Positions 29,959 to 32,396 of a DNA stretch of 64,000 bases are shown here, piece by piece. The DNA is taken from positions 75,144,001 to 75,208,000 of the forward strand of contig NC_042999.1 of assembly GCF_006345805.1 (NCBI RefSeq), read 5' to 3'. This DNA comes from Octopus sinensis. Taxonomy: Eukaryota. Made by a program: the position numbers. Position 1 is the stretch's first letter, and every line of letters begins with the position of its first letter.

Positions 29959-30919
29959 AATAAAATAGAACATATGCATATATATAAACATATATGTACG
30001 TACCTACCTCTACATGTACATATACACGCATATATGTGTACAGGACACCAAAAAGACGTCGAACACATAGAGAGACGAAAAACATAGACACAAACCAAGG
30101 AACAAGACAAGCAAAAAAAGAGATACAGGACAATAAGCACAACGAAAAATCCCCTTCTTCAGTCGCTAAGGTTTCATCTACTAAACGTTTCGAAGGATAT
30201 ATATATATATATAGGGCACGGAAGTGGCTGTGTGGTAAGTAACTTGCCTACCAAACACATGGTTCCGAGTTCAGTCTCACTGCGTGGAACCTTGGGCAAG
30301 TGTCATCCGACCAAAGCATTGTGAGTGGATTTGGTAGACGGAAACTGAAAGAAGCCCATCGTATATATATATATGAAACTAGATAAAAGATAAAAGATAA
30401 AAGATATACTTATAAGAGGGATGACTACTACGTGGACATCCATTATGTTAGAAGTAGATCCACTATGGTCTTACCACTAAGAATTGAATGTTCTCAAGAA
30501 AATTTAGCAAGCGCCAGAACGTAAGCGAGCAAGACAAATGAAAAGAAACGCATGTTTTTATATGTTTTTACTTGACTTGAAAATTTCTTGCGTCAATGCA
30601 TGAGTCAAACGTTAAAAATGATTCCTTGATCCTTGAATTCTGATTGGATCCTTGAAGCGGTTCTTTCACTTTGTTCCACCGTTTCTTTTCATTTCCCTTG
30701 CTCGCTTACTTGCTGGTGTTTTCTAAATTTTCTTGAGAACATTCCTTTGTTAGTGGTAAGACCATAGCGGAACTACGTCTAGCATAATGGATGTCCACGT
30801 ATGCAATATAATTTTTCTGAATCTTCAGATTTGAATATGCTAGACCACTGGTTTTAAATTGATATTAATCAAATTAATATTCAATTTTTCACCCTTATTA
30901 TTTTATACATACACACACA

Positions 30920-30992
<73 letters not shown>

Positions 30993-31083
30993 TCCATTTT
31001 TTCTCGTTGTTTACGTATTTCATGTTGTGAAATACGGAAACGTTAGTGACGTCCTGTTCCCATATATGCATGTGTGTATATTG

Positions 31084-31133
<50 letters not shown>

Positions 31134-32396
31134 CATACATACATATACATATGTATACTATATATTATTTACCATTTATTACATGTGTGTCTGTGTCTGT
31201 GTGTGTGCGTGCATGAATTTAATATATCCCATTTTCCACATAATGCCTGTTTCCGTATTATTTACAGGTAAAATAGACACATGGAAAAAATGGTTAACGG
31301 TGGAACAAAGTGAAAGAATCGATGCAAGGATTCAATCAGAATTCTCGGATCAAGGAATCATCTTTAATTTTTAACTCATGCATTGACGCAAGAAATTTTC
31401 AAGTCAAGTAAAGTTATACAAAAACATATATTGCCAGTTCAGCCTTCTTTATTGGCTCGACGATAATTTCTTAAGCTCTACGTCCTTATAGTGTAGTTTT
31501 TAATCAATAAATTTCAGTAAAACAAAATTCACATTTATTGTATTTCGATTTTTATTTGGAACCTTATGAAAGTTTCCTCAACATATTGTATGTAAAATGT
31601 AATATCCGATTTTGCAAATGAACTCCCTCCAAACCCATATGCAGCATACACTAATTTTAGAACAATTATGCCTTTTATTTTTACATCAATCTAACATTAT
31701 TATTTCAATCACTCCTCTAAAAAGGAAATAAAATTTACATATGGATATTCATTAACAGATGGCTCAAAGTGGTTTCATACCTCTTATCAAAATGATGTTT
31801 CCATAGTAATCTCCTTAGTCTGTTGAACTGTATCGCTATTAGACATGGTTTCAACAAGCATTATTTATCGAATTTTGTGTTTTCGTAAATTGTAGTAATC
31901 TTCATGAAAGCACACGAAACAAACGTAGATGTAACTGAGCACTACTTTTTTCCAATTGATACATATGTTTCAGTATTCAGCAATACATAACGTCACATTA
32001 TAGTTGCAACAAATAGATACAACTTACAGGGCCAACATGTAGCAGTCACATCGTCAGACAATTGAAAAAGAAATATAAGCTAACCACTAGCAGCAACCAA
32101 ATTTAAATACAATGGAGGAATACGCCAGATAGGAGTGGGTAGTTAAACTAATCGGCATAACCACACAGTCGACTGGTGTTTCATAATAGTAGGGATTAGG
32201 GATTAGGTCGCCTGTATTTGACGATACACGGAGGAGGAGAAAGGTGACGGTGGAGGGCAAAGAGGGAAAGTTAACATCTGGTAAGATAAATGAGTATAAT
32301 AGAAATTGTCTATGCCGTCACAGTCTGGTTAGCCCCATATACCCACGCATGCACACATGCAAGCACACGCAAACACACACAAACACACACAAACAC

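What the first reader, a model, noticed from the sequence alone, without database searches (positions are those of the whole stretch)
30429..31427. Inverted copy of the terminal exon, held between inverted arms, sits 600 nt upstream of the real exon
Seen: 30551-30682 is the reverse complement of exon 5 plus 3'UTR (31297-31427). By hand count there are 10 mismatches in 78 coding nt, then 38 identical UTR nt. The fragment is bracketed by diverged ~122-bp inverted arms. It mixes copy 2-like and copy 3-like bases (e.g. a TGA stop), so it may come from another or an ancestral paralogue. I saw no such structure in copy 3. Inference: either gene-fragment capture by a fold-back (Pack-type) element or a template-switch product. 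In the pre-mRNA it could act as an editing-complementary sequence across the last codons and stop (the middle A of UAA would face a C), alter terminal-exon splicing, or yield siRNAs against the whole family. Arm-arm pairing would hold the antisense fragment in a loop.
Basis: partly seen in the sequence, partly recalled or inferred. Interest (0 to 1): 0.78.

Follow-up and report, generated by a model that had tools for sequence, protein, structure and literature searches.

The report
Intronic palindrome holding inverted exon copy
In the last intron of an octopus sulfotransferase gene sits a 373-base palindrome whose middle is a decayed, backwards copy of part of the gene's own last exon; it looks like an old scar of DNA-break repair, not a working part.

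Summary
Window 30552-30683 is the ungapped reverse complement of 31296-31427 (132 nt, 14 mismatches). It is bracketed by inverted arms 30429-30550 and 30680-30801 (122 nt, 14 mismatches). The gene is copy 2 of three tandem cytosolic sulfotransferase genes of Octopus sinensis type. The element lies in its 6.4-kb intron 4.

The fragment is closest to copy 2's own exon. It carries mostly amino-acid-changing substitutions and shows no compensatory change. Its own branch is about half the arm-arm divergence, so arms and fragment look equally old.

One junction has a 4-nt microhomology (AACG/CGTT). The other has a 1-nt filler.

My best reading is an in-place, snap-back templated insertion at the centre of a short palindrome. 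This is the kind described as a single-copy, transposition-independent Pack-TIR. It is now decaying neutrally.

Whether the arms are a transposon family could not be tested, because no octopus genome was searchable.

In the pre-mRNA, two mutually exclusive duplexes of about 125 bp are possible. Editing, siRNA or splicing roles are untested and have no sequence support. This is a new member of a known kind, of modest interest.

The parts
24852..31267 (+). Intron 4 (phase 1) of sulfotransferase copy 2, which hosts the element
   Evidence: The exon 4 end and GT donor are at 24851/24852, and the AG acceptor at 31266-67. The exon peptides equal the Octopus sinensis protein P0001.
30429..30550 (+). 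Left arm of the palindrome (122 nt), ending in ...AAACG
   Evidence: I2. There are 14 mismatches to the right arm. No other copy exists in the window by blastn with word size 7 or by nhmmer --max.
30551..30551 (+). Single filler base (C) between the left arm and the fragment, matched by neither source
   Evidence: Read directly from the sequence. Arm homology ends at 30550 and exon homology starts at 30552.
30552..30683 (-). Inverted copy of the last 79 coding nt (stop included) plus 53 nt of 3'UTR of exon 5. On the minus strand it reads TVEQSERTASRIQSEFKDQGIIFNV*
   Evidence: I1, the alignment, the site patterns and the translation.
30680..30683 (+). 4-nt overlap (CGTT) that belongs to both the fragment and the right arm. 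It is the reverse complement of AACG, which is found at both 30547-30550 and 31296-31299
   Evidence: In a simulation of random breakpoints, microhomology of 4 nt or more occurred with P = 0.023.
30680..30801 (+). Right arm of the palindrome (122 nt)
   Evidence: I2. The terminal 19 nt are identical to the left arm's and occur nowhere else in the window.
31296..31427 (+). Parent segment in exon 5 of copy 2: coding to the TAA stop at 31372-31374, then 3'UTR
   Evidence: Exon 5 starts at 31268, and the first AATAAA is at 31506.

Best explanation
The structure is a neutral scar of DNA-break or replication repair, made in place.

A short palindrome (left arm directly abutting right arm, about 244 bp) stood in intron 4. 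It was either a freshly inserted MITE-like element or a de novo inverted duplication. It broke at or near its centre. The 3' tail of the right-hand end, which ends in ...AACG, snapped back on its own strand. There it paired with the 4-nt inverted microhomology at 31296-31299 in exon 5, about 0.6 kb downstream. It copied 128 nt (31300-31427), then was released and joined to the left end with one extra base. This leaves: arm, C, inverted exon piece, arm. The exon fragment was never transposed.

A variant of the same idea needs no earlier palindrome. In it, two consecutive template switches occur in one repair event: first copying the arm, then jumping by AACG to the exon.

Since then the arms, the fragment and the parent exon have each drifted by about 5-6%.

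In the pre-mRNA the locus can form either a 122-bp arm hairpin or a 132-bp fragment-exon duplex, but not both. Either would be an incidental dsRNA substrate, not a selected device.

What is shown: the anatomy, the junctions, the divergences, the lack of coding constraint in the fragment, and the fold energies. What is inferred: the break, the snap-back order of events, and neutrality.
For: (1) Local source. The parent lies 612 nt away in the same gene, and the fragment is closest to that copy: 119 of 133 columns against 114 of 133 for copy 3 and 84 of 133 for copy 1.

(2) Junctions. A 4-nt microhomology (AACG/CGTT) sits exactly where the exon copy meets the right arm (P = 0.023 by simulation). 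A 1-nt filler sits at the other junction. This is the pattern of synthesis primed at one end and end-joining at the other, described for foldback templated insertions of 2 to about 150 bp in yeast (PMC11724301, passages).

(3) Equal age. The arms differ at 14 of 122 positions (11.5%). The fragment's own branch is 6-7 of 132 (about 5%), about half of that.

(4) No coding constraint in the fragment. Four of its 5 private coding changes alter the amino acid. In the real exon, 3 of 4 private changes are silent.

(5) No compensation. There are 14 unpaired positions. The 39-nt perfect run is not unusual (P = 0.08).

(6) Context. The window holds 7 nearby inverted-repeat pairs apart from the exon pair. 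They share no terminal motif, and 4 of the 7 abut (TA)n tracts. One pair in intron 4 of copy 3 is 99-100% identical. Local inverted duplication therefore recurs here.

(7) It fits the published profile of single-copy animal Pack-TIRs. These are mostly transposition-independent gap filling, and 56.9% lie within 15 kb of the parent. Microhomology is present at one or more breakpoints in 67.6% (median 2 bp), the median captured size is 224 bp, and breakpoints are skewed to the interior of the element (PMC8277862, passages).
Against: The arms' copy number in the octopus genome is unknown. If many copies exist, some carrying the same exon piece, transposition would be back on the table.

The palindrome is flanked by TA on both sides (30429-30 and 30800-01). 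That fits a TA target-site duplication of a Tc1/mariner-type MITE as well as it fits a 2-nt palindrome extension or microhomology.

The age argument rests on small counts, and a fragment half as old as the arms is not excluded. Arm-to-arm gene conversion could also make the arms look younger than they are.

A snap-back loop of about 600 nt is longer than the 41-nt loop studied in yeast.

The source paralogue is not formally resolved: 2 versus 2 parsimony-informative sites.

Neutrality is inferred from one genome only. No expression, editing or population data were available.
Confidence: 0.55

Rival explanations
1. A mobile Pack-MITE or fold-back transposon picked up the exon fragment (here or at another paralogue) and then transposed into this intron.
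For: The structure has long terminal inverted arms with 19 identical terminal nt, TA on both flanks and a size typical of MITEs. A pogo-type DDE_1 transposase remnant lies in the window at 14474-14776, so TA-duplicating elements exist in this genome. The fragment shows a mix of copy 2-like and copy 3-like bases.
Against: Landing 612 nt upstream of the most similar exon, in a genome whose chromosomes run to about 174 Mb (contig length), would be a large coincidence. There is no second copy of the arms in 64 kb, although this test has almost no power. Multicopy Pack-TIRs in animals were reported to lie far from their parents, and single-copy ones near them (PMC8277862). The mixed bases can be explained by later change in copy 2's exon.
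Confidence: 0.12
2. Whatever its origin, the fragment now works as an intronic editing-complementary sequence or dsRNA trigger for exon 5 of copy 2. The roles could be ADAR editing, siRNA production or control of terminal-exon use, perhaps gated by the competing arm hairpin.
For: The organism is an octopus, and cephalopods edit very widely (PMC5705066 and PMC9989829, passages). The pair meets a published criterion for a potential dsRNA: a reverse-complement match of at least 80% identity and at least 50 nt within 2 kb (PMC9989829). The free fold of 30400-31500 chooses fragment-exon pairing (-380.3 kcal/mol; -365.6 with the arms forced). One A:C mismatch lies at the stop codon.
Against: There is no compensatory change, and the divergence equals that of the arms. 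The arm hairpin (-189.7 kcal/mol on its own) is complete 495 nt before the parent segment in exon 5 begins to be transcribed. A closed 129-nt loop cannot form a full 132-bp helix (geometry is inference). UAA to UIA still reads as a stop. The only A:C site is that one. No RNA data were available. The O. vulgaris gene models lack the exon 5 end for a copy 2-like gene and also for a copy 3-like gene, so that gives no copy 2-specific signal.
Confidence: 0.08
3. Three unrelated events produced the structure: an older inverted duplication of the exon piece, later flanked by two independent insertions of the same short repeat in opposite orientation.
For: Inverted pairs of short repeats are common in repeat-rich genomes, and the arms are 88.5% alike, as family members could be.
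Against: Both arms would have to abut the fragment exactly (1-nt filler, 4-nt overlap) and have identical outer and inner ends. Arm and fragment ages match. No further copy of the repeat is in the window.
Confidence: 0.04
4. The structure is an assembly artefact.
For: The window does contain suspiciously perfect repeats elsewhere: 57933-58166 versus 58626-58393 at 100% identity, and 546-bp tandem units at 100% identity in 61895-63999.
Against: Both repeat pairs of this structure are about 11% diverged and ungapped. Mis-joins of reads do not produce that.
Confidence: 0.02

Closest known systems
Single-copy Pack-TIRs of animals made by transposition-independent gap filling (Tan et al. 2021, PMC8277862; passages read)
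   Same: A non-transposon gene piece of about 130 bp sits between inverted arms. It was copied from a parent less than 1 kb away on the same chromosome. It has microhomology at one breakpoint, breakpoints in the interior (here the centre) of the arm pair, and exon sequence captured.
   Different: The arms are not shown to be a transposon. The text of that paper has 0 occurrences of 'octopus' or 'mollus', so cephalopods do not appear in it. Its supplements were not opened.
Foldback (snap-back) templated inverted insertions at double-strand breaks (Yu et al. 2024, PMC11724301; passages read)
   Same: An inverted copy of nearby sequence is primed from a short inverted microhomology next to the break, and the other end is joined without homology. 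The reported size range (2 to about 150 bp) includes 128 nt.
   Different: That work is in yeast, with a 41-nt loop and mostly inserts under 14 bp. Here the loop would be about 600 nt, and the event is ancient and only inferred.
Template-switch mutations that create hairpins (PMC5453318, search listing only; PMC8794818, abstract read)
   Same: A reverse-complement copy of nearby sequence is made in one replication event and yields an RNA-foldable stem.
   Different: The reported events are mostly short. Here there are two nested inverted pairs, and the stem partner is an exon 0.6 kb away.
Pack-MULE / Pack-MITE elements of plants (described in the introduction of PMC8277862; otherwise recalled)
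   Same: Gene fragments are held between terminal inverted repeats, and antisense or small-RNA effects on the parent gene have been proposed.
   Different: Those elements are mobile, often multicopy, and have family-typical target-site duplications. None of that is shown here.
Intronic editing-complementary sequences, e.g. Drosophila Syt1 (PMC5705066, passage); GluA2 Q/R (its ECS recalled)
   Same: Intronic sequence is complementary to a downstream exon of the same pre-mRNA.
   Different: Known ECSs are conserved and pair with edited sites. Here there are no editing data and no conservation signal, the partner is a plain decayed copy, and it is locked inside a competing hairpin.

Membership tests
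Pack-TIR / Pack-MITE (gene fragment inside a TIR transposon) | The flanking arms belong to a recognisable TIR transposon family (multiple genomic copies or a consensus) | not testable with these tools
   No eukaryotic genome collection was available. Within the 64-kb window the arms occur only as this pair. That has almost no power, because even thousands of copies in a genome of this size would rarely put a second one in 64 kb. A profile of the arm peptides searched against 1.84 billion proteins gave only 4 repeat-protein artefacts.
Pack-TIR / Pack-MITE (gene fragment inside a TIR transposon) | The internal sequence is non-transposon DNA with an identifiable parental copy elsewhere | tested here: met
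   30552-30683 equals the reverse complement of exon 5 at 31296-31427, 118 of 132 identical. The exon is conserved in three window copies and in O. bimaculoides proteins.
Pack-TIR / Pack-MITE (gene fragment inside a TIR transposon) | A target-site duplication flanks the arms | tested here: inconclusive
   Only TA/TA is present (30429-30 and 30800-01). TA is its own reverse complement, so this is also a 2-nt extension of the palindrome (chance about 1 in 16). No longer direct repeat is present.
Transposition-independent gap filling / foldback templated insertion | The parent lies in cis and nearby, with microhomology or short filler at the breakpoints | tested here: met
   The parent is 612 nt away. 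There is a 4-nt microhomology at one junction (P = 0.023) and a 1-nt filler at the other.
Transposition-independent gap filling / foldback templated insertion | An empty or pre-insertion state exists at the orthologous or paralogous site | not testable with these tools
   Intron 4 of copy 3 aligns with copy 2 only at its two ends (24842-25569 and 31229-31267), so it offers no empty site. Orthologous DNA of other octopuses could not be fetched.
Editing-complementary sequence (ADAR substrate) | Stable duplex with the exon in the pre-mRNA | tested here: inconclusive
   The duplex energy is -180.8 kcal/mol, and the free fold uses it. The arm hairpin (-173.2 for the arm duplex, -189.7 for the whole element) excludes it and is transcribed first.
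Editing-complementary sequence (ADAR substrate) | A-to-I editing observed at the paired exon positions, and conservation of the pairing | not testable with these tools
   There are no RNA reads and no orthologous DNA. Within this genome the pair shows 14 uncompensated mismatches.
hpRNA / endo-siRNA hairpin locus (Drosophila type; recalled) | The hairpin arms themselves are homologous to the target gene | tested here: not met
   The arms have no similarity to any sulfotransferase copy in the window. The gene-derived piece is the loop, not the stem.
Known structured RNA families (Rfam 15) | A match reaching the family's gathering score | tested here: not met
   All 18 hits in 29900-31900 are below gathering score and lie in microsatellites. 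None lies in 30429-30801. There is no tRNA in 24000-32000.

The most novel reading that the evidence does not exclude
This could be the birth of an editing-complementary sequence caught in a cephalopod. In that reading, a repair accident placed an antisense copy of the terminal exon in the upstream intron of one of three tandem paralogues. Copy 2, but not copy 3, would then be hyper-edited or dsRNA-processed across its last 26 codons and proximal 3'UTR. The competing arm hairpin would act as a kinetic or temperature-sensitive gate on that pairing.
Probability: 0.05. Interest if true: 0.65.

Novelty: new member of a known kind. Interest (0 to 1): 0.3.

Why it matters
As it stands, this is a clean, datable example of how local template switching builds nested inverted repeats inside a gene. 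It comes from an animal group that does not appear in the text of the animal Pack-TIR survey (no 'octopus' or 'mollus' occurrences).

It matters more if the dsRNA is used. How exon-pairing partners for ADAR arise is poorly documented. I found 0 papers combining 'editing complementary sequence', 'inverted duplication' and 'exon'. This locus also comes with a built-in control: paralogue copy 3 has the same exon but no antisense copy. Public RNA-seq could settle the point quickly.

Tried and rejected
1. Looking for more arm copies in the window: blastn with word size 7, a 19-nt terminal motif with up to 3 mismatches and nhmmer --max with a two-arm profile. Only the pair itself was found. This says little because 64 kb is too small a sample.

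2. An arm-peptide profile (alignment A2, 31 columns) searched against 1.84 billion proteins, as a proxy for copy number. It gave 4 hits. All matched short repeated stretches of 9-15 residues, or, for one of them, no listed stretch. The two I read were tandem-repeat proteins. Rejected as artefacts.

3. Empty-site comparison with copy 3 and with the repeat at 40527-40694. The flanks 30375-30428 and 30802-30900 have no counterpart elsewhere in the window.

4. Testing whether the arms are the continuation of a larger inverted copy of the exon 5 neighbourhood. The arms show no similarity to sequence around any of the three exon 5 copies.

5. Rfam and tRNA scans: nothing in the element.

6. A shared terminal motif among the 7 palindromes of the window: none. 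They are not one transposon family.

7. The O. vulgaris model P0015 has a different C-terminus. I looked for that tail in the window as a possible alternative last exon and found no significant match. A copy 3-like O. vulgaris model (P0016) also misses exon 5, so this is probably annotation noise.

8. Clustering of copy 2-like and copy 3-like sites as a sign of a mosaic source. There are 7 runs among the 19 ordered sites where about 9.8 are expected (my arithmetic from the positions), which is not significant.

9. Literature. There is no octopus sulfotransferase paper of relevance. The 'center-break' palindrome paper (Cunningham et al. 2003) was seen only in a reference list and is not held.

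10. Genome contigs was not scanned, because it holds bacteria and archaea only. The closed collections were not used.

Full report
**What is there.** The repeat finder reports two nested inverted pairs. I1 is 30552-30683 against 31296-31427: 132 nt, 89% complementary, 612 nt apart. I2 is 30429-30550 against 30680-30801: 122 nt, 89% complementary, 129 nt apart. Both are ungapped. In a blastn of the window against itself they score E = 3.7e-44 and 9.9e-39. Each pair has exactly 14 mismatches. For the exon pair, 10 mismatches fall in the coding part 31296-31374. A perfect 39-nt run follows at 31374-31412, then 4 mismatches at 31413-31419.

**The gene.** I read stop-to-stop frames of the plus strand and scanned them exon by exon against Pfam. 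Sulfotransfer_1 was found on exon 2 (E = 5.3e-16) and exon 4 (E = 1.6e-08). The exon 2 peptide alone, searched against the protein collection, is 99% identical to 'sulfotransferase 1E1-like [Octopus sinensis]' (P0001, 303 aa). That protein's sequence contains all five exon peptides I had read, including the C-terminus GKIDTWKKWLTVEQSERIDARIQSEFSDQGIIFNF. I did not build or search a joined protein; the spliced model was handled exon by exon only.

The window holds three tandem paralogues:
- Copy 1: its exon 5 is at about 2239-2345.
- Copy 2: exon 5 starts at 31268, with the TAA stop at 31372-31374 and the first AATAAA at 31506.
- Copy 3: its exon 5 is at about 59550-59656; it matches P0003.

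Intron 4 of copy 2 runs 24852-31267. The element lies 466 nt upstream of its acceptor.

**Where the fragment came from.** In a four-way alignment the fragment matches copy 2 at 119 of 133 columns, copy 3 at 114 and copy 1 at 84. Copy 2 matches copy 3 at 113. The site patterns are:
- 12 sites where the fragment and copy 2 agree against copy 3.
- 7 sites where the fragment and copy 3 agree against copy 2.
- 6 sites private to the fragment.
- 1 site where all three differ.

At 4 of the 7 'copy 3-like' sites, copy 1 also has the fragment/copy 3 base. Those can be read as changes that copy 2's exon made after the copy was taken. At 2 sites, including the TAA stop, copy 1 sides with copy 2. Strictly parsimony-informative sites are 2 against 2, so the source is not formally resolved. 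Distance and position both point to copy 2's own exon, and a foreign or ancestral paralogue is not needed.

The C-termini of the other family members I fetched (P0002, P0004-P0008, P0017, P0018) are no closer to the fragment's reading, TVEQSERTASRIQSEFKDQGIIFNV*.

**No constraint on the fragment.** Of the fragment's 5 private coding changes, 4 alter the amino acid: I to T, D to A, A to S and F to V. Of the 4 changes private to the real exon, 3 are silent: two synonymous changes and one stop-to-stop change. None of the 14 mismatches is compensated. The 39-nt perfect run is within chance given 14 mismatches in 132 positions (P = 0.08).

**Age.** The arms differ by 11.5% (Jukes-Cantor 0.125). The fragment's own branch is 6-7 of 132, about half of that. 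The introns of copies 2 and 3 are about 73% identical (Jukes-Cantor about 0.33). The arms therefore became two copies, and the exon piece was copied, at about the same time. That time was well after the copy 2/copy 3 duplication. The counts are small, and arm-to-arm gene conversion could blur this.

**Junctions.** The left arm ends in ...GAAAAGAAACG at 30550. A single C (30551) follows that neither source explains, and then the exon copy starts. At the other side, the last four bases of the exon copy (CGTT, 30680-30683) are also the first four of the right arm. AACG is present both at the end of the left arm (30547-30550) and at the start of the parent segment (31296-31299). With random breakpoints, an overlap of 4 nt or more arises with P = 0.023. 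At the outer ends the palindrome includes TA on each side. Beyond it the flanks share nothing.

**Mechanism proposed (inference).** A break occurs at the centre of an arm-arm palindrome. It leaves a right-hand 3' tail ending in AACG. After resection this tail can fold back on its own strand and pair with CGTT, the complement of 31296-31299. It is then extended through 31427 and joined to the left end with one added base. This gives exactly the order and orientation seen, with one microhomology junction and one blunt junction with filler.

That hybrid pattern is described for foldback templated insertions in yeast (PMC11724301, passages). It is also described for single-copy Pack-TIRs of animals, which were reported to arise mostly without transposition, close to their parents and with microhomology (PMC8277862, passages). 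A perfect palindrome is known to be unstable (PMC7680136, passage). The 'center-break' paper itself was seen only as a reference, and I recall its content. Instability would explain why the arms and the insert look equally old.

If there was no earlier palindrome, the same structure needs two template switches in one event.

**Is it a transposon?** This could not be decided. The arms have no other copy in the window by three methods, but 64 kb is far too small a sample to count against a family. A protein-space proxy gave only artefacts. TA flanks and a nearby pogo-type DDE_1 remnant keep a MITE origin of the arms open. Even then, the fragment's nearness to its parent argues that the capture happened in place.

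**Local context.** Apart from the exon pair, the window has 7 close inverted-repeat pairs with unrelated ends, and 4 of the 7 abut (TA)n. Intron 4 of copy 2 also holds a 99.7% direct duplication (28211-28791 and 29082-29661). It has an inverted partial copy at 29947-30199, lying across a (TA)n tract. Intron 4 of copy 3 holds a 99-100% inverted pair inside a (TA)n tract. Local inverted duplication is evidently frequent here.

**RNA consequences.** Folded as RNA, the fragment-exon duplex scores -180.8 kcal/mol and the arm duplex -173.2 kcal/mol. The element alone folds to -189.7 kcal/mol, against -79.5 +/- 5.6 for shuffles.

For 30400-31500:
- The free fold is -380.3 kcal/mol and uses the fragment-exon pairing.
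- Forcing the fragment-exon pairing gives -378.1 kcal/mol.
- Forcing the arms gives -365.6 kcal/mol.

The two structures cross, so they exclude each other. The arm hairpin is finished 495 nt before the parent segment in exon 5 begins to be transcribed. It therefore probably forms first and keeps the antisense piece in a closed loop (inference).

The pair does meet a published screen for potential intramolecular dsRNA (PMC9989829), and octopuses edit heavily (PMC5705066). Some promiscuous editing of one or the other duplex is therefore plausible. The only A:C mismatch is the middle A of the stop codon, where editing would still give a stop.

**What stayed unchecked.**
- Arm copy number in the genome.
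- Orthologous loci in other octopuses.
- Any RNA-seq, editing or small-RNA data.
- Long-read support for the structure.
- The supplements of the papers cited, which were not opened.

**Verdict.** The structure is real, old and well explained. It is a new example of a known kind (a locally templated inverted insertion, or a single-copy Pack-TIR-like structure), with no sign of selected function. The editing idea is cheap to test because copy 3 serves as a control, but its prior is low.

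Noticed in passing
window 57933-58626 and 58319-58733: Intron 4 of copy 3 holds a 239-nt inverted pair, 99-100% identical, with a 216-nt spacer. It lies between two (TA)n tracts. It is interleaved with an older 76-nt inverted pair (88%) whose left arm lies in the spacer. 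There is no exon sequence in it. It is either a very recent inverted duplication or an assembly effect.
   Followed up: partly
window 28211-30199: Intron 4 of copy 2 carries a 581-nt direct duplication at 99.7% identity (28211-28791 and 29082-29661). It also carries an inverted partial copy (29947-30199, 96.5%), separated by a long (TA)n tract, 230 nt upstream of the element.
   Followed up: partly
window 25835-26056 / 26941-27163: A further inverted pair in the same intron: 222 nt, 92% identical, 884-nt spacer, with (TA)n on the right flank.
   Followed up: no
window 4930-6602 and 19844-20385: A fold-back-like repeat with arms of about 570 nt (95%) rich in (TTA)n. It has a third related copy 13 kb away, so it is probably a real repeat family.
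   Followed up: no
window 61895-63999: Tandem units of 546 bp at 100% identity run to the end of the window. This is either a satellite or a collapsed or expanded assembly region.
   Followed up: no
window 14094-15226: Broken plus-strand frames of a pogo/Tigger-type transposase (Pfam DDE_1, E = 3e-07 on 14474-14776) lie just upstream of exon 1 of copy 2.
   Followed up: partly
window 30223-30374 and 40527-40694: A repeat of about 160 nt (83% identity, inverted) lies just left of the element. Its homology stops 55 nt before the left arm, so it gives no empty site.
   Followed up: yes
proteins P0015 and P0016 (Octopus vulgaris models): The O. vulgaris counterpart of copy 2 ends in 59 residues unrelated to exon 5, and these are not encoded in the window. 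A copy 3-like model reads through the exon 4 donor. Both miss exon 5, which is most likely an annotation weakness.
   Followed up: partly
proteins P0003 and P0017: O. sinensis has a second protein at least 90% identical to copy 3 (same cluster), so the family has further close paralogues outside the window.
   Followed up: no
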